Translations under genes and position numbers: made by a program
The notes under the pieces: generated by a model
The model's input: the letters and a program-made list of their open reading frames with translations, nothing else
Databases searched by the model: none
Told to the model about the DNA's origin: nothing
IMG/VR virus record: IMGVR_UViG_2690316149_000020
Coordinates: 1 to 21,247 of that record
DNA length: 21,247 nucleotides
From: a virus
Lineage: Duplodnaviria > Heunggongvirae > Uroviricota > Caudoviricetes
Reading direction: 5' to 3' (one strand)
Shown: piece after piece, positions 12,362-21,247 of the stretch
Numbering within the stretch: the stretch's first letter is position 1
Layout: every line of letters starts with the position of its first letter

Positions 12362-14755
12362 ATGGCTAATTACCGTGATTTGTTAGAGCAGGCTGGCGCA
12401 CGTTACGGTGTGCCAGAAGGGTTGATGACTGCACTGGGTGCCAAGGAGTCTTCTTACAACCCTGCCGCAGTAAGCTCCGCCGGGGCTGTAGGATTGACTC
12501 AGGTCATGCCTGGGACATGGCGTGATATGGGTTATACCGATGAGCAAATGCAAAACCCCGAATATCAGGCTGACGCTGGCGCGCGCTATCTGGCAAAGAT
12601 GTACCAGCAGTTTGGTAACTGGCGTGACGCTCTTCAGGCTTATCACGACGGTCCCGGCAACGTTATGAAGGCAAAGCGTGGTGAATATACGCCAGGACCT
12701 GAAGGCCGCGGTTACGTTGATGATCGCTTTGCTCAATGGGCGGGTGACCCGGTGACAGACTCAACAGTCGAACAGCGCGCCACCTCTGCAAAGGTACATC
12801 CTCAGCAAGACCCTAACAACCCGTTTGCACAACTGGAAGCACAGTCATCCGAACAAGTATCGGCATCAGGCGTGCAGTCAGACCCAAATAATCCATTTGC
12901 TCAGATTGAGCAGCAGGCAGCCAGTCAGCAGCCACCTCAACCCGTAAGTTCTGTCGCACCGAAACCTGTTCAGCAGCAAGGCGGAATAATGTCTGACCTT
13001 GGTAATGGACTTGCTGAAACCGGGCGCGGCTTACTACAGGCAGGAATCAACGTAGCGAACATACCTGCTGAACTCACTGATGCTGTAACAAGCGCGGCGG
13101 CTTGGGCTGGCGGTAAACTCGGCATTGGCGATGGTACATATCAACCAGCACCACGAGTAACAACGCAGGGATTAGAGCGGGACTTTGGCCTTCGGCAAGG
13201 CGCGCTGACTCCACAAACGACAGAGGGAAGGGTATTTGCTGAAGCATTGCCTTACCTCACTCCTGCTGGCGTTGAGAGAGCGGCGGTACAGGCACCAACA
13301 CTTGCTGGTCGAATTGCTCAGGGGGCAACACGACTTCTCGCAGAAAACGCAGTTGGATCACTTGCTGCAAATAGTGCGAAAGATGATGCGGAAGCACTCG
13401 CCACCGATTTAGGCGTTGGTGTACTTGCTGGCGGTGCTATTAACGCTGCTGGACGTGGATTAGGTGCTGCTTATCGTGGCGTTCGTGGTGCTATCGCGCC
13501 AGAAGCGCAGCAGGCCATCAGATTTGCAGAGCGTGAAGGAATTCCTCTGCACACCACAGACCTGTTACAACCAACTTCCCGCGTCGGAAAAATGGCGCAG
13601 ACTACAGCAGAAAATATCCCTCTGGCTGGCACAAGCGGAATGAGAGCAACGCAACAGGAAGCGAGAAGCCAGCTGGTGCAGAGATTTGCCGATAAATTCG
13701 GTGAGTATGATCCAGCGGTTGTTATTGACAGCCTTAAAGCGAAAACATCAGGAATTCGTCGTGCCGCCGGTAATCGACTGGAGCAGGTTCAGAATGCTAT
13801 GGCCGGAGTAAACATTCAGCCTGCGCGAGCAATTCAGCAGATTGATACAGAAATATCTAACCTACAGAAGCTTGGTAAGGTTGCTGATAACGAGACTATT
13901 TCAAAACTTCAGTCATATCGTGATGAGCTTATTCGCAATGCTGGCCCTGATGGTCCTGTAAATCTGGATTTGAAGCAATTAAGCGACCTGCGCAGCCAGT
14001 TCAGAATGGACGTGAAGGGTGAGCGACCAGTGTTACCAAACCGTTCCGATGCTGCAATTCAGCGCGTTTACAAGGCAATGACTGACGATATCAATGGTGC
14101 CATTGGTCAGAATCTTGGCAACGATACTCTCCGTAAATATCAGCAGGCCAATGCCGTCTATGCTGACGAAGCAGCGAAACTCAAGAATACCAGGCTGAAG
14201 AATGTTCTCATGAAAGGCGATCTGACGCCAGAAGTTGTCAACAACATGCTATTCAGCAAGAACAAATCGGAAATTAAGACGTTGTATAACTCAGTTGGTC
14301 GTGTTGGCAGGGCGCAAATGCGCAATGGCATCCTTGGAAAGGCGATGGAGAAATCTGGAGGATCCCCTGACCAGTTCCTTCGGCAGCTTAACATCCTGCA
14401 AAACCAGACTGGCATCACATTTAAGGGGCAGGACGCTGCTTATCTGAAAGGATTAAAAAACTATCTGCAATCCACGCAGCAGGCTGCAAAAGCGGCAGTA
14501 ACAACACCAACAGGGCAGCAAACCATCCCGTTCATTATCGGATATGGGACAGCAATGAACCCGGCGACAACTGGCGCAGCAGTAAGCTATGGACTTCTTA
14601 CTCGCGCCTATGAGAGCGAGCCATTCAGAAATGCAATGCTCCGAATGGCAAACACCCCACGCGGATCAACAGCGTTTGAGAAAGCCATGCAGCAAGCACA
14701 AAAGGCAATTAACGCTATGACGCAGGGGGCTAAGTCTGATGCATTGTCAGAATAG
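12362..14755 (+). CDS. ejection protein in the gp16 position with an N-terminal family-1 lytic transglycosylase (SLT) domain (797 aa)
   Basis: Third E-protein position. N-terminal motifs GAKESSYNP (catalytic Glu-Ser), GLTQVMP and AYHDGPGN follow the SLT pattern. Start is TAAATG, directly after gp20. Confidence 0.75.
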   Translation: MANYRDLLEQAGARYGVPEGLMTALGAKESSYNPAAVSSAGAVGLTQVMPGTWRDMGYTDEQMQNPEYQADAGARYLAKMYQQFGNWRDALQAYHDGPGNVMKAKRGEYTPGPEGRGYVDDRFAQWAGDPVTDSTVEQRATSAKVHPQQDPNNPFAQLEAQSSEQVSASGVQSDPNNPFAQIEQQAASQQPPQPVSSVAPKPVQQQGGIMSDLGNGLAETGRGLLQAGINVANIPAELTDAVTSAAAWAGGKLGIGDGTYQPAPRVTTQGLERDFGLRQGALTPQTTEGRVFAEALPYLTPAGVERAAVQAPTLAGRIAQGATRLLAENAVGSLAANSAKDDAEALATDLGVGVLAGGAINAAGRGLGAAYRGVRGAIAPEAQQAIRFAEREGIPLHTTDLLQPTSRVGKMAQTTAENIPLAGTSGMRATQQEARSQLVQRFADKFGEYDPAVVIDSLKAKTSGIRRAAGNRLEQVQNAMAGVNIQPARAIQQIDTEISNLQKLGKVADNETISKLQSYRDELIRNAGPDGPVNLDLKQLSDLRSQFRMDVKGERPVLPNRSDAAIQRVYKAMTDDINGAIGQNLGNDTLRKYQQANAVYADEAAKLKNTRLKNVLMKGDLTPEVVNNMLFSKNKSEIKTLYNSVGRVGRAQMRNGILGKAMEKSGGSPDQFLRQLNILQNQTGITFKGQDAAYLKGLKNYLQSTQQAAKAAVTTPTGQQTIPFIIGYGTAMNPATTGAAVSYGLLTRAYESEPFRNAMLRMANTPRGSTAFEKAMQQAQKAINAMTQGAKSDALSE

Positions 14756-14845: not shown

Positions 14846-15331
14846 TTATCTGATGTTACTGCTACTGTTGCATGTGACTGTATTTCCAAACCCTGAATTG
14901 CAGTTTGTGTAAGTGTCAACTCGTGTTGGATAGGGTTGAGTTATAACAGGCTGTCTCGCTTTTTGCTCGATCGCTTGCATTGTGTTTACAGCCTGATAAT
15001 TCAATAAAGCCTGCTGGAATGCTTGGCTTTGTGCTATTTGTTGGGCTTGTTCTTGGCTTTGTAATTGAACATAAAGATTCTGAAGCTCAAGTCTTGCCTG
15101 TGCGTCACTTATCTTGCCTTCATCGACACTTTGCCCGAGCATCTTTGCAGCAAGGACATACAGCTTAGGTGTTGGTGCTGATGCCATGCGTGAGTCGTTC
15201 TTCACGCTGGCATCAAGGCAATTAGCCATATCGCTAAGCTTTTGATAGCGTTGTTCGCAACTTGCTTGATAGTCACTTACTTTTGCGCACCCAACCAGCA
15301 GAAGCGGGATAATTAACAGTGATTTTTTCAT
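14846..15331 (-). CDS. predicted lipoprotein (161 aa), function unknown; candidate lysogeny-expressed exclusion or conversion factor
   Basis: Internal ATG at 15329-15331 (minus) is preceded by AAGGAG about 10 nt upstream. Signal peptide MKKSLLIIPLLLVGC has lipobox LVGC, and Ala at +2 predicts outer-membrane sorting. Gln-rich mature region with several Cys. The ORF-track start at 15367 lacks an RBS. Confidence 0.65.
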   Translation of the reverse strand: MKKSLLIIPLLLVGCAKVSDYQASCEQRYQKLSDMANCLDASVKNDSRMASAPTPKLYVLAAKMLGQSVDEGKISDAQARLELQNLYVQLQSQEQAQQIAQSQAFQQALLNYQAVNTMQAIEQKARQPVITQPYPTRVDTYTNCNSGFGNTVTCNSSSNIR

Positions 15332-15401
15332 ATGGTTAACTCTCCTTAGTTTTTCACAGGATATCATGAAGGCAATGCCATTTTAGCCGGAAACTAGATT
15401 T

Positions 15402-15668
15402 CTATGTTCCCTTTTTATTATTGCTATACATGGTCTTAAGCGTTTCAAAAACCATTTTCTTAACCATATCAGATTGTTGTTCTGCTATACGCTCTGCATC
15501 GTCAATGTAAACTGATGCAGAGCTTTGTTTAGCCAATGATTCTTCAATCGCTGCAATTATCTCTGAGTTCAGCGACCTGTTATTCATCTTCGCACGCTGC
15601 TTAATTTTCGCGTGGAGTTCATGCGGAAGTCTCAAGTGAAACTGCGCCTCGTCGTATTTGCTGTACAT
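15402..15668 (-). CDS. mnt: Mnt-like ribbon-helix-helix (Arc/MetJ family) repressor (88 aa)
   Basis: C-terminal segment DDAERIAEQQSDMVKKMVFETLKTMY closely resembles the P22 Mnt tetramerisation region. An RHH core (QFHLRLPHELHAKIKQRAKMNNRSLNSEIIAAIEESL) precedes it. Start taken at the internal ATG (15666-15668) to give an Mnt-like length. Confidence 0.8.
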   Translation of the reverse strand: MYSKYDEAQFHLRLPHELHAKIKQRAKMNNRSLNSEIIAAIEESLAKQSSASVYIDDAERIAEQQSDMVKKMVFETLKTMYSNNKKGT

Positions 15669-15741
15669 CCTTGATGCCTCACCAGTTGGGTGGAATGGCA
15701 TCGTAACTTACTGGATAAATACTCAATAGTACCATTTCGGT

Positions 15742-15764: not shown

Positions 15765-15799
15765 CATATCATTCGTCTGGAGCAATGAAATGTCAGATA

Positions 15800-16339
15800 T
15801 CACCTACCATGATTCTCATGATAACCATAGGTCTTTTCAGCCTCACGCCTTACAGCAATTGCATCATCGAGACTCTTAAAGTATCCGAGATTAATGCGCT
15901 TCCCTGCGTCGCTAATATATGCCACCCACTTTTTATGGGTCTTATGCCATGAAACACCTGCGCACCCAGATGTATTGTTTGTGTATTTAGATTTGTTTTT
16001 TAGATTTTCACCGAGACTAACTAGACGCAGGTTGTCTATTGAATTATTTAACCCATTACCATCTTTATGGTCAATTTGCATTCCTGAAGGGATTTCACCA
16101 TAAAACATTTCCCATATTATCCTATGGGCGGCGTATATTTTATCTTGATACCTGATAATTATATAAGATGTTTTCCTGTTCTTGTCCTTGAATATATGTC
16201 CTGCAGGCTTTTCTTTAGATATATTGAACATTTTGGGTCTTGAAAGATATTGGTCACTCCAGTACAGGAGTCCATCGTCTTTTAATACGAATACTTCGTT
16301 CCAGTTCATGTTAACCACCTTTAAATAAAGTTCACTCAT
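15800..16339 (-). CDS. HNH homing-type endonuclease with C-terminal AP2 DNA-binding domain (179 aa; possibly 169 aa from the ATG at 16309)
   Basis: HNH_3 motif [28 protein letters not shown], followed by an AP2-like segment [45 protein letters not shown]. Visibly AT-rich. The alternative start at 16309 has an AAGGTGG Shine-Dalgarno 5 nt upstream. Confidence 0.8.
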
Positions 16340-16396: not shown

Positions 16397-18637
16397 ATGA
16401 CAGATTCAATAAATGCCAATGTTGTGGTAAGCATGCCTTCGCAACTCTTCACTATGGCTCGTTCTTTTAAAGCCGTAGCCAATGGAAAAATTTATATCGG
16501 TAAAATTGACACTGACCCGGTAAACCCTGAAAACCAGATTCAGGTTTATGTGGAGAACGAAGACGGCTCTCACGTTCCTGTTTCTCAACCAATAATCATT
16601 AACGCTGCTGGATATCCGGTATATAACGGACAGATTGCCAAATTCGTAACCGTGCAAGGCCATTCTATGGCTGTTTATGATGCGTATGGTGCGCAGCAGT
16701 TCTATTTTTCGAATGTGCTGAAGTATGACCCTGACCAACTCAGGCAAGATCTTGCATCTCAAGGAGGTGTTAATCTGGTAAACGGAGCTATCTCACAGGA
16801 AGATCTTGTTTTGCAGTCGATCACAAAAATTCCAAGTTATGATAATTCTAACGTAGTCCAGGCGTGGCGCGATAGTGTTGCGACCTACGGGTATGTTTAC
16901 TTCTCTAATCATTCAAAAAATCAGATGGTGTACACCGTACCGTCTACAGCTGCTAACGCTTCTTTCCTTGCGAACAGTAAAGTAATCATTGATAAAAATG
17001 TCACCCTGAGATTCGACAGTGATCTGTACTCACTGTTTAAATCGTTGCAGTACGAGGGGGAGGGTACGTTTGAATTTACGCACCTGAACTTTAAAGCAAC
17101 CGGTGGAGAAGTGGATTATCTGGCTAAGCAGGCCATCCTCAACCGAAACCCTATTCGCATGAAGCGAGTGGAATGGTCAGATTGTAAAGTTTATTCCATA
17201 AATGGTGACACGTTCTTCTATGAAGGTGAAGTCACCATATCCTCAGATAGCGCAGCTATCTTCCCCTTAACTACTGACCGTACAACAGGCCTGTTCGCAC
17301 CAATAGATATTGGAGAGCATATTTCTGCACATATTCGTATGGAATCTCAGGCCGCCTCAGAAGTTGGGATTGTTCTGCGATGCTCTGGTGGTTGGATGAT
17401 GTTCTATGGGGCACCAGGTGCTACACAGTGGTCTTATAGACAGAAACCAATTGGTGGTCCAGTAGCAGAAGGAACTCCATTCCCGCTGCCAGGAGGTTTA
17501 CTGTCGTACGCCCCGGGCAAAGCAACCGTTGGCGTATCACTGCAAGGTAAAAACTGGGCGCAGATAACGATGAATGGCGTTGGGATACGTTTGCCCTTTG
17601 ATACTGCTGATGTAGGGGATGTATACGAAGTTGGGTTTGTTGCACTGACCACGGCATCTGGAGGTTCTGCGCGTGTAACTGGATTATGCAGCTACACCTC
17701 TGATAATGGCGTGCACGGTAAGCCTCCACTTAATATCCTTATCCACGGTGATAGTACAGCTGAGGATTTCATTTCCGCGTTCAGCTCGTACATTCCGCAA
17801 TTAATGGATGGAGCGAACGGCCACCGTTCACATAGCATTGTAAACAAGGCAGTTGCCGGACAGACAATGAGGCAACAGTTAGATCTCCTGAAGGCTCAGG
17901 GGCCGGGTGATGCTTACATCGTTATTATGGTTGCCGGAACTAACGAAGGGCAGGCAAACCAAAACGGCGATTATATGGCGTCATTGATAGATGAGTTTGT
18001 CTTATATTGCAATGGCCTTGGTCGTATCCCTGTTTGGGTTGAGCCGTGGATGTGGTATAGCCAGTCATTTATTGGAGGGGCTGGCCAGCCATCTTCTAAC
18101 TACGACGGTGTCGCAGAGTTGCGAGAAGCTGGTAAACGCCAGATGATGAAATATGGCAATAACGTCATTTGTGTAACAACAACTCACCAGCTCCCGGCCC
18201 CATATCCAGAGTATTTCAACACGCAATACGACCCACTTCTGCGTGATGACATTCACCAAAGCCAGTTAGGGTATCGTCTGTATGCGGAAATTATCTGCTC
18301 TGCCATTATCGACTGGTGGTCGCGTGTTGATTACACGCCAAGAGCAGCTGTTCAATGGTGGGCTGGAACAAACGTAACAGTACAGGCACCGTCAAGTTTA
18401 ACTGCCAATTCAATTAATATTAAACTGGCAGCCACTTCATTTGCGAATGGCAATACTGTTCTAACGCTTCCGAGGTGGTGCAGACCAAAAGTAACCAAAA
18501 ATGTCCCTGTACCGTTCACTGCTGATGGCGTTTCATTTGGCATGGCAATGGCCACCATTAATGCTTCAACAGGACAAATATCGATTGAAGGGTCCACCAC
18601 TACATCTCCAACGTTCTACATAGATGCGACATGGTAG
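16397..18637 (+). CDS. tailspike: P22 gp9-type head-binding N-terminal domain fused to a distal region with an SGNH/GDSL hydrolase (esterase) domain (746 aa)
   Basis: Start at the ATG giving [18 protein letters not shown]...[26 protein letters not shown]...VLKYDPDQ, the conserved P22 gp9 N-terminus. The ORF-track start at 16352 adds 15 non-homologous residues. SGNH blocks in order: [27 protein letters not shown]. Confidence 0.85.
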
Positions 18638-18845: not shown

Positions 18846-20003
18846 TCACTCCACCTTCCCATCAAGCCATTCCGCCCACCACTGCATCATTTCTCTGCGC
18901 TTATCTAGATACTGAGCATGGTTGTAAATCCCGCGCACAGATCCGCCGTTGGCATGTGCAAGTTGCACTTCAATAGCGTCAGCAGGCCATTCGTGCTCGT
19001 TCATAATCGTGCTGAATTCATGCCTGAATCCGTGACCGCTTTCCAGACCCTCATAGCCGATTTGTTTAATCACAAGTAGCACCGCGTTCTCGCAGATTGG
19101 CTTCTTCTTATCGTTGCGTCCGGCAAAAACAAACTCTGATACTGGCTTGGTGATTGAGCTTAGCGTAGTAAGAAGTTCAACCACCTGGTCTGACATCGGG
19201 ACCACATGAATTTTTCGACCCTTCATCACACTGGCGTCGATGGTGATAATCCTGTTTTCAAAATCGACGTTCTTCCATAGCATGGAACGAAGTTCTTTCG
19301 TTCTTAGGGCGGTGTAGCGTAAAACTTTAGTCGCAATAAGCGATACGATACTTCCTGAAAATGTTGCCAGTGCTTTGTTGAATGCCGGGATCTGGTCTGC
19401 AGGAAGAAACGGGAAGTTCTTCTTGCGGTATCCTTTCATGGCGTCTGCAAGGTCAGGTGCCGGGTTATATTTAGCCCTTCCGGTGACAATAGCGTAACGG
19501 AAAACCTCGCCGCATCTTCTGCGTGCTTTGTTGGCTCGCTCCATTGCACCGCGATCTTCAAATCTGCGGATTACTTCCAGCAGTTGCATCGGCTCAATAT
19601 CCTGAATCTCAAGACCGCCGATGATGGGTAAAATGTCGTCATCAAACATTTTTGCAAGTTCAGTCGCATACCCTACTGACCAGACTTGCTTCTTGTGCTC
19701 GTACCATTCCTTGTAAATCGCACTAAATGAATTGTTGTTAGACGAAGCCTTTTTCGCCTTTACCGGATCGATGCCAACCGAGATGTCTTTCCTCGCGGTC
19801 CATGCTTTATCCCTTGCTTCCTGCAAAGTCATAAGCGGATATTTTCCGACGGTCAGGATTTTCTCCTTACCGTCAATCTTGTAGCGAAGCTGCCATACCT
19901 TTTTCCCGGATACAGGGACATAAAGGTACAGGCCATTACCATCGAGAAGGCGGTATGGTTTTTCTTTCGGCTTTGCTGCTTCAATCTGCTTAACGGTGAG
20001 CAT
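18846..20003 (-). CDS. intS: tyrosine recombinase / phage integrase, IntS-like (385 aa from the ATG; the ORF-track GTG start at 20039 would give 397 aa)
   Basis: Sits directly beside the 3' end of argW and is transcribed away from it. C-terminal catalytic-domain residues are visible (...HGFRHEF...HANGGSVRGIYNH...). Sequence and context match the recalled argW-associated IntS family. Confidence 0.85.
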   Translation of the reverse strand: MLTVKQIEAAKPKEKPYRLLDGNGLYLYVPVSGKKVWQLRYKIDGKEKILTVGKYPLMTLQEARDKAWTARKDISVGIDPVKAKKASSNNNSFSAIYKEWYEHKKQVWSVGYATELAKMFDDDILPIIGGLEIQDIEPMQLLEVIRRFEDRGAMERANKARRRCGEVFRYAIVTGRAKYNPAPDLADAMKGYRKKNFPFLPADQIPAFNKALATFSGSIVSLIATKVLRYTALRTKELRSMLWKNVDFENRIITIDASVMKGRKIHVVPMSDQVVELLTTLSSITKPVSEFVFAGRNDKKKPICENAVLLVIKQIGYEGLESGHGFRHEFSTIMNEHEWPADAIEVQLAHANGGSVRGIYNHAQYLDKRREMMQWWAEWLDGKVE

Positions 20004-20080
20004 GGGTAAAAATCCGGTGGGTAAAATTATTTTATCCACTTTTTACCCGTCATGGTGTGCGGCTGTCAACGATCTGACGC

Positions 20081-20164: not shown

Positions 20165-20239
20165 TGGTGTCCCCTGCAGGAATCGAACCTGCAATTAGCC
20201 CTTAGGAGGGGCTCGTTATATCCATTTAACTAAGAGGAC
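20165..20239 (-). tRNA. argW: tRNA-Arg (anticodon CCU), argW; prophage attachment target
   Basis: The reverse complement reads GTCCTCTTAGTTAAATGGATATAACGAGCCCCTCCTAAGGGCTAATTGCAGGTTCGATTCCTGCAGGGGACACCA. It has a 7-bp acceptor stem, anticodon loop CTCCTAA with CCT, a T-arm GGTTCGATTCC and a 3' CCA. 75 nt. Confidence 0.9.
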
Positions 20240-20314: not shown

Positions 20315-21247
20315 TTATGCTGGGTTTTTATCATTTTTCTTAATGTTTTCCGCACGTTCTGCTTTTTGGCGTGCTTCTGCTTTACGCTTGTTGCTCATGT
20401 CGTTACGAATCTGTGCATGACTCATTAACGCGAAGATAAAGGTGCCGCCGCAGATGTTCCCCGCTAAAGTAGGTAGTGCGAAGGGCCAGATGAAATCGCT
20501 CCAGTGCAGCGTGCCGTTAAACACCAGATAGAGGATTTCAACAGAACCGACAACGATGTGGGTGGTGTCACCCAGTGCAATAAGCCAGGTCATCAATATA
20601 ATCACCACAATCTTTGCCGCACCCGCAGCAGGAAACATCCAAACCATAGTGGCGATCAGCCAGCCGGAAATGATCGCGTTGGCAAACATCTCGCTGGGGG
20701 TGTTCTTCATCACATCCATGCCGATTTTGACAAATGCATCGCGAGTTTCTTCATTGAAGATAGGCATATATTCAAATGCCCATGCAGCAATACCTGTCCC
20801 GAGAATATTACCCAGCAGCACGACGCCCCATAATCGCATAAGTAAGCCGACGTTGCTCATTGTCGGTTTTTGCATGACGGGTAGTACCGCAGTCACGGTG
20901 TTTTCGGTAAATAATTGCTGGCGGGCCATAATGACGATAATAAAACCAAAGGTATAACCGAGATTCTCCAGTAAGAAGCTGCCTGGCACTCCTTCCAGTT
21001 CGACATGAAATATCCCTTTTGCCAGTAGCGAAGCGCCCATCGACAGACCCGCCGCAATGGCTGACCACAGTAGCGCCATTGCGTCGCGTTCCAGCTCTTT
21101 TTCACCATCCTGGCGGATATGCTCATGAATTGCCATCGCCCGGGAGGGGAGTCGGTCTTCATCTATTTCTATTTTTTTGCCGCGCTCTTTTTCTTCGCTC
21201 TCAACTTCAATTTCGTCGCTGTGTTGATCAATTTTGTCGTTGTCCAT
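20315..21247 (-). CDS. yfdC: inner-membrane protein of the formate/nitrite transporter (FNT) family, YfdC-like (310 aa); host gene flanking the prophage
   Basis: Full-length ORF whose start codon is the last triplet of the window. Acidic N-terminal tail followed by multiple hydrophobic helices. It is the expected host neighbour of argW in enterobacterial genomes. Confidence 0.8.
   Translation of the reverse strand: MDNDKIDQHSDEIEVESEEKERGKKIEIDEDRLPSRAMAIHEHIRQDGEKELERDAMALLWSAIAAGLSMGASLLAKGIFHVELEGVPGSFLLENLGYTFGFIIVIMARQQLFTENTVTAVLPVMQKPTMSNVGLLMRLWGVVLLGNILGTGIAAWAFEYMPIFNEETRDAFVKIGMDVMKNTPSEMFANAIISGWLIATMVWMFPAAGAAKIVVIILMTWLIALGDTTHIVVGSVEILYLVFNGTLHWSDFIWPFALPTLAGNICGGTFIFALMSHAQIRNDMSNKRKAEARQKAERAENIKKNDKNPA

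What the first reader, a model, noticed from the sequence alone, without database searches (positions are those of the whole stretch)
14846..15331. Predicted outer-membrane lipoprotein in the position of sieA: candidate superinfection-exclusion or receptor-masking factor
A strong Shine-Dalgarno (AAGGAG) precedes an ATG that opens a classic lipoprotein signal peptide (MKKSLLIIPLLLVGC). Ala at +2 after the lipid-modified Cys predicts outer-membrane sorting. The mature protein is Gln-rich with predicted helical and coiled-coil character and a Cys-containing C-terminus. It lies directly downstream of the mnt-like gene on the same strand, where P22 encodes the inner-membrane exclusion protein SieA. 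Phage outer-membrane lipoproteins such as Llp and Cor are known to block receptors, so a lipoprotein substituting for SieA suggests a different exclusion mechanism.
Basis: partly seen in the sequence, partly recalled or inferred. Interest (0 to 1): 0.7.

Follow-up and report, generated by a model that had tools for sequence, protein, structure and literature searches.

The report
Orphan prophage lipoprotein in sieA slot
A P22-like prophage of E. coli carries, where phage P22 keeps its exclusion gene sieA, a conserved gene for a small outer-membrane lipoprotein of an uncharacterised family found mostly on phages and phage satellites; it is a reasonable but untested candidate for blocking infection by other phages.

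Summary
A 161-codon gene on the minus strand (15331 to 14846) has an AAGGAG ribosome site and a textbook lipoprotein signal (lipobox LVGC, Ala at +2). The mature protein has no membrane segment. It is a real gene: dN/dS is 0.03-0.11, and homologues occur across Enterobacterales.

It lies between the last DNA-ejection gene (gp16 homologue) and the tailspike gene, 70 nt downstream of mnt. That is the position of sieA in P22.

It is unrelated to SieA, Llp, Cor, Bor or TraT. It matches only PHROG 6067 (function unknown). The models show a generic four-helix bundle with one conserved Cys pair, a variable linker, and a C-terminal hairpin carrying a second Cys pair.

About 14-23% of E. coli P22-like prophages carry it. 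It is nearly invariant while the neighbouring ejection, needle, mnt and tailspike genes vary. It was never found together with P22-type SieA.

A wider superfamily (241 cluster representatives) lies mostly on mobile elements. One member sits in the same slot of a distant podovirus; others sit in satellite-like elements.

Function is inferred, not shown. A lysogen-expressed envelope factor that blocks phage DNA entry is the best guess (about 0.4). This is an uncharacterised family within a known kind of system.

The parts
14846..15331 (-). Lipoprotein gene: 161 codons plus stop, member of PHROG 6067
   Evidence: dN/dS is 0.03-0.11.
15290..15331 (-). Signal peptide, residues 1-14 (MKKSLLIIPLLLVG). 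The lipid-modified Cys15 codon follows at 15289-15287.
   Evidence: Sequence. The lipobox is present in 36 of 36 close homologues, with A, V or T at +2.
15041..15289 (-). N-terminal helical-bundle domain, residues 15-97. It holds the invariant Cys25/Cys38 pair and the motifs DYQxxCE and PKLYxxAAKxLGxxVDxGxIxDxQARxELQxxY.
   Evidence: AlphaFold pLDDT is 80-89 here and 88-97 in a compact homologue.
14927..15040 (-). Gln-rich helix and Pro-rich linker, residues 98-135. Length and sequence vary across the family.
14849..14926 (-). C-terminal beta-hairpin with the conserved Cys144/Cys154 pair (TNCxxxxGNxVxCxS). It exists in two swapped sequence types among close homologues.
   Evidence: dN is 0.54-0.64 here against 0.09 in the N-domain for L089 and L091. 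The motif is present in 141 of 204 distant relatives.
15342..15347 (-). Shine-Dalgarno AAGGAG, 10 nt upstream of the ATG. It lies within the roughly 40-nt block that travels with the gene in all mosaic contexts.
15402..15701 (-). mnt-like Arc/Mnt ribbon-helix-helix repressor gene. It ends 70 nt upstream of the lipoprotein start on the same strand, with no terminator between them, so it is a probable co-transcription partner.
   Evidence: Pfam Arc 1.2e-14 and Repressor_Mnt 2.5e-11. Terminator scan.
15768..15796 (-). Promoter-like site (CTGACA-17-AATGAT) upstream of mnt. It is a candidate promoter for an mnt-lipoprotein transcript.
   Evidence: This is a consensus match only; 2 sites were found against 5.3 expected in shuffles.
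12362..14755 (+). gp16-type DNA-ejection protein gene with an N-terminal SLT domain. It is convergent with the lipoprotein gene and forms the left edge of the slot.
16397..18637 (+). Tailspike gene with a P22 head-binding N-domain. It forms the right edge of the 'ant moron' slot.
   Evidence: Pfam Head_binding 2.5e-65.

Best explanation
The gene is optional accessory cargo (a 'moron') of the variable region between the last ejection-protein gene and the tailspike gene of P22-like prophages.

**Proposed chain of events:**
1. It is transcribed antisense to the late operon. In this window it is most likely transcribed together with the mnt repressor gene, so it would be made in the lysogen (inferred).
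2. The product is exported and lipid-modified at Cys15. Because it lacks Asp at +2, the Lol pathway would sort it to the inner leaflet of the outer membrane (sequence rule; not shown).
3. Its four-helix bundle would sit just under the outer membrane. A flexible Gln/Pro-rich linker would hold the C-terminal hairpin out into the periplasm. Both cysteine pairs are presumed to be disulfide-bonded (inferred from their conservation and the predicted periplasmic location).
4. I propose that it protects the lysogen against superinfection at the DNA-entry step, acting as an outer-membrane or periplasmic counterpart of the inner-membrane protein SieA.
5. Its target is more likely a conserved host envelope component needed for channel formation or secondary-receptor use than the highly variable ejection proteins themselves.

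Steps 1-3 rest on sequence and context. Steps 4-5 are inference from position, localisation, the distribution of the family on mobile elements, and precedent.
For: - **Gene and signal.** It is a real, strongly constrained gene with a conserved lipobox, no Asp at +2 and no membrane segment.
- **Slot.** It occupies the same slot and orientation as sieA in P22. The slot is a known variable 'ant moron' that holds sieA in P22 (PMC2629481; PMC10883804).
- **No SieA alongside.** None of about 86 distinct carrier loci has a P22-type SieA, although orf59a, arc and ant do co-occur. In a gp7-sampled set of 66 loci there were 15 with the lipoprotein, 2 with SieA and 0 with both.
- **Envelope cargo in the slot.** In other prophages the slot holds further envelope-targeted cargo: a PEGA-like lipoprotein and a secreted protein.
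- **Independent module.** The gene is 96-99% identical next to at least three unrelated gp16 types, to gp20 at 38-100% identity, to both needle types and to many tailspikes.
- **Conserved slot in distant hosts.** The same slot is used at 50-60% identity in Tatumella and Providencia. In a distant podovirus the gene is convergent with a 'DNA ejection protein' gene (phrog_26400, 3e-52).
- **Mobile-element distribution.** Other relatives lie beside a giant polyvalent protein gene and in integrase/AlpA/primase/small-terminase satellite-like elements.
- **Precedent.** Small phage lipoproteins that exclude phages are known: T5 Llp and Cor and the mEp Lpp proteins (PMC11893012).
Against: - There are no functional data of any kind.
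- It shows no homology to any known exclusion or defence protein.
- The fold is uninformative.
- No conserved promoter travels with the gene, so expression in lysogens is inferred.
- The absence of co-occurrence with SieA is only marginally significant, and SieA types B and C were not tested.
- At least one distant relative lies in an ordinary chromosomal neighbourhood.
- 49 of 66 sampled P22-like prophages have neither gene, so the slot does not demand an exclusion function.
- Strong purifying selection is not the arms-race signature often seen in exclusion proteins.
Confidence: 0.4

Rival explanations
1. It is a lysogenic-conversion factor that benefits the host in ways unrelated to phages. 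Examples would be serum or complement resistance, envelope-stress tolerance or colonisation, in the manner of lambda Bor or plasmid TraT/Iss outer-membrane lipoproteins.
For: - It is a prophage-borne lipoprotein in a moron slot.
- It is extremely conserved, at 96-99% identity with dN/dS of 0.03-0.11, as expected for a protein acting on a conserved host or environmental target.
- One superfamily member is chromosomal.
- It is carried by 186 of 5426 complete E. coli genomes from clinical, animal and environmental sources.
Against: - It has no Pfam hit to Bor or TraT families, or to anything else.
- Repeated linkage to ejection-protein genes and to satellites is not explained by a virulence role.
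- Many relatives come from environmental metagenomes.
Confidence: 0.25
2. It is a Spackle-like periplasmic inhibitor. It would bind and inhibit a peptidoglycan-degrading activity carried by incoming virions, such as the SLT domain on some gp16 proteins or gp4-type hydrolases, so that the ejection conduit cannot cross the wall. This is a specific sub-mechanism of exclusion.
For: - The adjacent gp16 homologue in this window carries an SLT domain (Pfam 2.9e-25).
- The protein is a small, helical, periplasmic protein with a conserved cysteine pair, which broadly matches T4 Spackle as I recall it.
- Two distant relatives have an ordinary signal peptide instead of a lipobox, so the lipid anchor is dispensable for the fold.
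Against: - It is not associated with SLT-bearing gp16: 1 of 15 carriers against 9 of 51 non-carriers.
- The Gally-type and P22-type gp16 proteins next to it have no SLT hit.
Confidence: 0.1
3. It works in the phage's own lytic cycle rather than in the lysogen. Possible roles are Llp-type 'lytic conversion' that stops progeny from wasting DNA on debris of lysed cells, or an accessory role in envelope disruption or egress.
For: - It is tightly linked to the virion and ejection gene cluster in distant phages.
- T5 Llp is a precedent for a lipoprotein made during lytic growth.
Against: - It is on the strand opposite to the late operon and co-oriented with mnt.
- It is optional, being absent from 51 of 66 sampled relatives.
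- It is also carried by satellites and non-phage elements.
- The window does not contain the lysis cassette, and the protein has no C-terminal membrane segment as a unimolecular spanin would.
Confidence: 0.1
4. It is a chance ORF or a mis-called gene.
For: None beyond the absence of any annotation other than 'hypothetical protein'.
Against: - PHROG 6067 matches at E = 1.9e-109.
- There are 94 homologues in many genera with invariant Cys residues and motifs.
- dN/dS is 0.03-0.11, including an allele with 97% protein identity at dS of about 1.5.
Confidence: 0.01

Closest known systems
P22 SieA (superinfection exclusion protein A)
   Same: It shares the genomic slot and orientation: convergent with the end of gene 16, downstream of mnt and antisense to the late operon. 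Both are optional cargo of P22-like prophages (PMC10883804). Both are envelope proteins of about 160 aa.
   Different: SieA is an inner-membrane protein that blocks DNA transport across the inner membrane (PMC10883804). This protein has a cleavable lipoprotein signal, no membrane segment and a predicted outer-membrane anchor. They share no sequence similarity (hhalign probability 0.2%).
T5 Llp and phi80/N15/T1 Cor (receptor-blocking phage lipoproteins)
   Same: All are small phage-encoded lipoproteins with conserved cysteines in the mature part, encoded beside virion or host-recognition genes.
   Different: Llp and Cor precursors are 77-78 aa. By my recollection they act on FhuA. This mature protein is 147 aa with a four-helix bundle, a linker and a hairpin. 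The hhalign alignments cover only the signal-peptide region. The carrier phages use O-antigen tailspikes, not FhuA.
mEpimmI Lpp exclusion lipoproteins
   Same: They are lipoproteins found by lipobox search inside a structural gene cluster, and were shown to exclude phages that use a given outer-membrane receptor (PMC11893012).
   Different: They come from a different phage group. Function is shown there but not here.
Lambda Bor / plasmid TraT (outer-membrane lipoproteins of mobile elements)
   Same: They are lysogen- or plasmid-expressed outer-membrane lipoproteins that change host surface properties (from my own knowledge).
   Different: There is no Pfam hit to those families at E <= 0.01, and the architecture differs.
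PHROG 6067
   Same: It is a full-length match (1-161 of 161, E = 1.9e-109). This is the family it belongs to.
   Different: The family has no known function. The superfamily found here is much wider (241 representatives) and extends to satellites and other elements.

Membership tests
Bacterial lipoprotein (Lgt/LspA/Lnt substrate) | Positively charged n-region, uncharged hydrophobic h-region, lipobox [LVI][ASTVI][GAS]C, and Cys within residues 15-35 | tested here: met
   The sequence is MKKSLLIIPLLLVG-C15. A PROSITE-type pattern matches the window protein and 36 of 36 close homologues.
Bacterial lipoprotein (Lgt/LspA/Lnt substrate) | Actual acylation and signal peptidase II cleavage | not testable with these tools
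   This needs globomycin sensitivity, palmitate labelling or mass spectrometry.
Outer-membrane-sorted lipoprotein (Lol pathway, Enterobacterales rule) | No Asp at +2 (the Lol avoidance signal) | tested here: met
   The +2 residue is Ala. Close homologues have A, V or T. None of 161 distant relatives with a lipobox has Asp. Localisation itself is untested.
PHROG 6067 | Full-length profile match | tested here: met
   E = 1.9e-109, residues 1-161 of a 161-position profile.
SieA family | Sequence homology to SieA | tested here: not met
   hhalign probability is 0.2%. tblastn of P22 SieA finds nothing in the window. Only P22-type SieA was used; types B and C were not tested.
SieA family | Integral inner-membrane protein | tested here: not met
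   The mature protein has no hydrophobic segment (maximum 19-residue Kyte-Doolittle mean 0.47).
SieA family | Location between gene 16 and gene 9 homologues of a P22-like prophage | tested here: met
   PMC10883804 states this location for sieA.
SieA family | Blocks DNA entry by P22-like phages without affecting adsorption | not testable with these tools
   This needs plating, adsorption and potassium-efflux assays.
T5 Llp / Cor receptor-blocking lipoproteins | Sequence homology of the mature protein | tested here: not met
   The hhalign alignments cover only the signal-peptide region (probability 59% and 11%). No PHROG other than 6067 is hit, apart from a chance tail-protein hit at E = 0.006.
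T5 Llp / Cor receptor-blocking lipoproteins | Inactivates the outer-membrane receptor used by the encoding phage | not testable with these tools
   The secondary receptor of this phage is unknown. This needs adsorption or receptor-function assays.
Lambda Bor / TraT | Match to the Pfam families for these proteins | tested here: not met
   There were 0 Pfam families at E <= 0.01.
Known anti-phage defence systems (PADLOC-DB 2.0) | Profile match to a defence protein model | tested here: not met
   There were 0 families at E <= 0.1.
T4 Spackle-like periplasmic inhibitor of virion lysozyme | Fold similarity to Spackle or other lysozyme/transglycosylase inhibitors | tested here: inconclusive

The most novel reading that the evidence does not exclude
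This would be the founding member of a widespread family of lipoproteins borne by mobile elements (P22-like and other podoviruses, PICI-like satellites, integrative elements). From the periplasmic face of the outer membrane, these proteins would stop short-tailed phages from assembling their ejection-protein conduit. The conserved four-helix bundle would dock on a host envelope component, and the swappable disulfide hairpin would act as the specificity element. That would be an exclusion mechanism at a step and membrane for which no factor is known in P22-like phages.
Probability: 0.25. Interest if true: 0.7.

Novelty: new variant of a known kind. Interest (0 to 1): 0.45.

Why it matters
- **A gap in P22-like phage biology.** According to PMC10883804, 22 of 66 sequenced P22-like phages carry sieA. 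In the 66 E. coli P22-like contigs sampled here, 2 had P22-type SieA and 15 had this lipoprotein. What the other prophages use at the DNA-entry step is not known.
- **Abundance.** This gene is present in about 3% of complete E. coli genomes and in 14-23% of their P22-like prophages. It is extremely conserved and has never been studied.
- **If it excludes phages.** It would define a new exclusion family acting at the outer membrane or periplasm. It would give a handle on how podovirus ejection proteins cross the envelope. It would also matter for phage therapy host-range prediction in E. coli, Klebsiella aerogenes, Serratia, Proteus and Providencia.
- **If it does not.** It would be a common lysogenic-conversion lipoprotein worth testing for effects on the host surface.

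Tried and rejected
- **Family libraries.** Pfam, NCBIfam, PADLOC and a PDB sequence-profile search gave no meaningful hit. The only hit was a sub-threshold GspK match at 18.6 bits against a cutoff of 130, judged to be low-complexity Gln-rich similarity. It may also account for one 'GspK' name in the database.
- **Homology to Llp, Cor and SieA.** Rejected.
- **Link to an SLT-bearing gp16.** Rejected: 1 of 15 carriers against 9 of 51 non-carriers. The RefSeq name 'lytic transglycosylase domain-containing protein' on the Gally-type gp16 is not backed by a Pfam hit.
- **Co-variation with neighbours.** The lipoprotein does not co-vary with gp16, gp20, needle, mnt or tailspike type.
- **Own promoter or terminator.** The conserved upstream block is only about 40 nt (ribosome site only). 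No terminator-like structure follows the gene (z = 0.27).
- **Spanin idea.** Rejected: there is no C-terminal membrane segment, the gene lies outside the lysis cassette and it is on the wrong strand.
- **Literature.** Searches for the peptide motifs and for the PHROG number found nothing. Papers on P22-like 'ant morons' and on SieA do not mention this gene.
- **Scans for distant relatives in IMG/VR.** A scan with a broad alignment failed for lack of a conserved stretch. A narrower one returned only enterobacterial P22-like loci.

Full report
**What is in the sequence**

The finding's coordinates are correct, but the gene reads on the minus strand. The ATG is at 15331 and the stop at 14848-14846, giving 161 codons. 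AAGGAG lies at 15347-15342, 10 nt upstream of the ATG. An in-frame ATG at 15367 would add 12 residues and is the annotated start in phage Gally. The ribosome site and the length of most database homologues support 15331.

The N-terminus is MKKSLLIIPLLLVG-C15-AKV. It meets every element of the standard lipobox rule. All 36 close homologues keep the lipobox, with A, V or T at +2 and never Asp. The mature protein has no hydrophobic segment; the highest 19-residue Kyte-Doolittle mean is 0.47. It is therefore a lipid-anchored soluble domain, not a membrane protein like SieA.

Gln makes up 14% of the mature chain and a third of residues 95-128.

**Is it a real gene?**

Yes.
- It matches PHROG 6067 (function unknown) end to end at E = 1.9e-109.
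- A search of 5.8 billion proteins found 94 homologues at 48-99% identity. The named ones come from Escherichia, Citrobacter, Serratia, Klebsiella aerogenes, Cronobacter, Yersinia, Pectobacterium, Morganella, Providencia and Tatumella. Most named ones are called 'hypothetical protein'; one is named 'lipoprotein' and one 'GspK'.
- The alignment shows the invariant lipid Cys, an invariant Cys25/Cys38 pair, a conserved C-terminal Cys pair, and long invariant motifs.
- dN/dS against other E. coli alleles is 0.03-0.11. One allele has 97% protein identity at dS of about 1.5.

**Architecture**

AlphaFold with the family alignment gives confident helices only for residues 17-95 (pLDDT 80-89). After that come a low-confidence Gln-rich helix, a Pro-rich stretch and a C-terminal beta-hairpin.

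A compact 129-aa relative modelled much better (mean pLDDT 81.6; bundle 88-97; hairpin 77-83). It has the same layout.

**Genomic setting**

The window is the late-operon end of a P22-like (Lederbergvirus-type) prophage. It runs from the packaging and virion genes through the three ejection-protein genes to the tailspike. It ends with the integrase, tRNA-Arg(CCT) and a formate/nitrite-transporter-family gene, which I take to be yfdC.

The annotated P22 genome shows gene 16 (+), then sieA (-) with its own promoter, orf59a (-), mnt (-), arc and ant (+), and gene 9.

The window shows the gp16 homologue (+, ending at 14755), the lipoprotein gene (-), mnt (-, 15701-15402), an HNH endonuclease gene (-) and the tailspike (+). 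The claim about position is therefore exact.

The mnt stop and the lipoprotein start are 70 nt apart. No terminator-like site lies between them, and a promoter-like site lies upstream of mnt. Co-transcription with mnt is therefore likely but not shown. No convincing terminator follows the gene.

**Distribution and mosaicism**

The gene is present in 186 of 5426 complete E. coli genomes. A P22-type tailspike head-binding domain occurs at 1334 places in 1193 genomes. The carrier fraction is therefore about 14% of P22-like prophages.

In 66 IMG/VR contigs sampled through the conserved gp7 gene, 15 carry the lipoprotein, 2 carry P22-type SieA, none carries both and 49 carry neither.

Among 80 carrier contigs the lipoprotein is 96-99% identical, while its neighbours differ widely:
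- gp16 occurs as at least three unrelated types.
- gp20 ranges from 38% to 100% identity.
- mnt occurs as three types or is absent.
- Both needle types (P22-type and Sf6 knob-type) occur.
- Many different tailspikes occur.

The sequence block that travels with the gene starts only about 40 nt upstream of the ATG and holds just the ribosome site.

The stretch between tailspike and lipoprotein is only mnt in 39 of 86 loci. Elsewhere it also holds ant/arc, orf59a, a 121-aa HExxH protein, a second lipoprotein that is weakly PEGA-like, a 105-aa secreted protein, or the HNH gene. The literature calls this region the 'ant moron' (PMC2629481).

None of the carrier loci has a P22-type SieA. With a base rate of 2 in 51, about 3.4 would be expected among 86. 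The exclusivity is therefore suggestive only.

**Wider family**

A profile search of 1.84 billion cluster representatives found 241 relatives (94 at E < 1e-10). Most are 125-170 aa proteins from metagenomes. They share the whole plan: lipobox, QxxCE...F..M..C, KLYLLxAxxLxxxVxxGxISDxDARxELQxLY, a linker of variable length, and a C-terminal TxCxxxGxxxxCx(S/T)(Y/R). Two have an ordinary signal peptide instead of a lipobox.

Their contexts were as follows:
- One lies in an ordinary chromosomal neighbourhood.
- One is convergent with a giant polyvalent protein gene (ddrB-ParB/PBECR1/LPD38).
- One lies in a distant podovirus. It is convergent with a gene that matches PHROG 'DNA ejection protein' at 3e-52 and is followed by a tail protein gene, which is the same slot.
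- Several lie in elements with integrase, AlpA, DUF3987 primase and a small terminase, which look like phage satellites.
- Two were unclear.

In Tatumella and Providencia prophages the gene keeps the P22 slot at 50-60% identity.

**Comparison with known exclusion proteins**

Profile comparisons with T5 Llp and N15 Cor align only the signal-peptide region. The comparison with P22 SieA aligns nothing. The protein is therefore not a member of those families. What it shares with SieA is the slot. What it shares with Llp, Cor and the mEp Lpp proteins (PMC11893012) is being a small phage lipoprotein encoded in or next to the virion gene cluster.

**Mechanism**

*Shown by sequence:*
- It is an exported lipoprotein without the inner-membrane retention signal.
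- It has two conserved cysteine pairs.
- It has a conserved bundle and a more variable hairpin. Against L089 and L091, dN is 0.54-0.64 in the hairpin and 0.09 in the bundle.

*Inferred:*
- It is expressed in lysogens.
- It is anchored in the outer membrane and faces the periplasm, with its cysteine pairs disulfide-bonded.
- It blocks entry of superinfecting phage DNA.

Because the protein is nearly invariant beside very different ejection proteins and tailspikes, I favour a conserved host envelope component as its direct partner over the incoming ejection proteins.

I put exclusion at entry at about 0.4. A phage-unrelated conversion function is at 0.25. A Spackle-like hydrolase inhibitor is at 0.1; association with SLT-bearing gp16 was tested and not found. 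A role in the phage's own lytic cycle is at 0.1.

**Novelty**

The gene family is known only as a numbered PHROG without function. I found no paper mentioning it. If the exclusion reading is right, it is a new, unrelated family within a known kind: prophage lipoproteins that protect the lysogen. It would act at a membrane for which no exclusion factor is known in P22-like phages. The evidence here is contextual only, so I score interest as moderate.

Noticed in passing
window 16397-18637 (+): The tailspike has the P22 head-binding N-domain (Pfam 2.5e-65). It also has a weak GDSL/SGNH hydrolase match in residues 451-628 (E = 1.3e-3, below the Pfam cutoff). It may be an esterase-type (O-antigen deacetylating) tailspike rather than a glycosidase.
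   Followed up: no
window 15800-16339 (-): An HNH plus AP2-domain homing-endonuclease gene lies between mnt and the tailspike. It is present in only 4 of 86 related loci, so it looks like a recent mobile insertion.
   Followed up: partly
window 15402-15701 (-): An mnt-like repressor gene is present without any arc or ant gene. The same holds in 39 of 86 related loci, where mnt is the only other gene in the slot. What this repressor controls is unclear. In P22, Mnt represses ant.
   Followed up: partly
window 12362-14755 (+): The gp16-type ejection protein carries an N-terminal SLT lytic-transglycosylase domain (Pfam 2.9e-25). Only 10 of 66 gp7-sampled relatives have it. The Gally-type and P22 gp16 proteins have no such hit, although RefSeq names the Gally-type protein 'lytic transglycosylase domain-containing'.
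   Followed up: partly
window 20165-20239 (-), 18846-20039 (-), 20315-21247 (-): A tRNA-Arg(CCT) gene lies next to the integrase gene, followed by a formate/nitrite-transporter-family gene. This looks like integration at argW beside yfdC. The best-matching E. coli genome (EC01307) carries the same lipoprotein gene in a prophage at a different site, near dacD/sbmC.
   Followed up: partly
L025 8448-8879 (-); L067 3554-3871 (+); L081 4073-4438 (-): Other cargo occupies the same slot in related prophages. There is a second lipoprotein of about 140 aa (MKRIIGVVAGAMMLSGC..., weak PEGA hit) in 11 loci. There is a 105-aa secreted protein in 9 loci. There is a 121-aa HExxH protein divergent from the lipoprotein gene in 15 loci.
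   Followed up: partly
L170 4501-4980 (+); L168 5037-5426 (+): Distant relatives of the lipoprotein sit in small integrative elements with AlpA, a Toprim/DUF3987 primase and a small terminase. This is the gene content expected of PICI-like phage satellites.
   Followed up: partly
L162 215-598 (+) and 636-10598 (-): A distant relative is convergent with a gene for a protein of more than 3700 aa with ddrB-ParB, PBECR1 and LPD38 domains (a 'polyvalent protein' of mobile elements).
   Followed up: no
L147 3745-4266 (+) versus window 14846-15331 (-): An allele with 97% protein identity differs at most synonymous sites (dS about 1.5, dN 0.039). This implies old divergence with unusually strong constraint on the protein.
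   Followed up: partly
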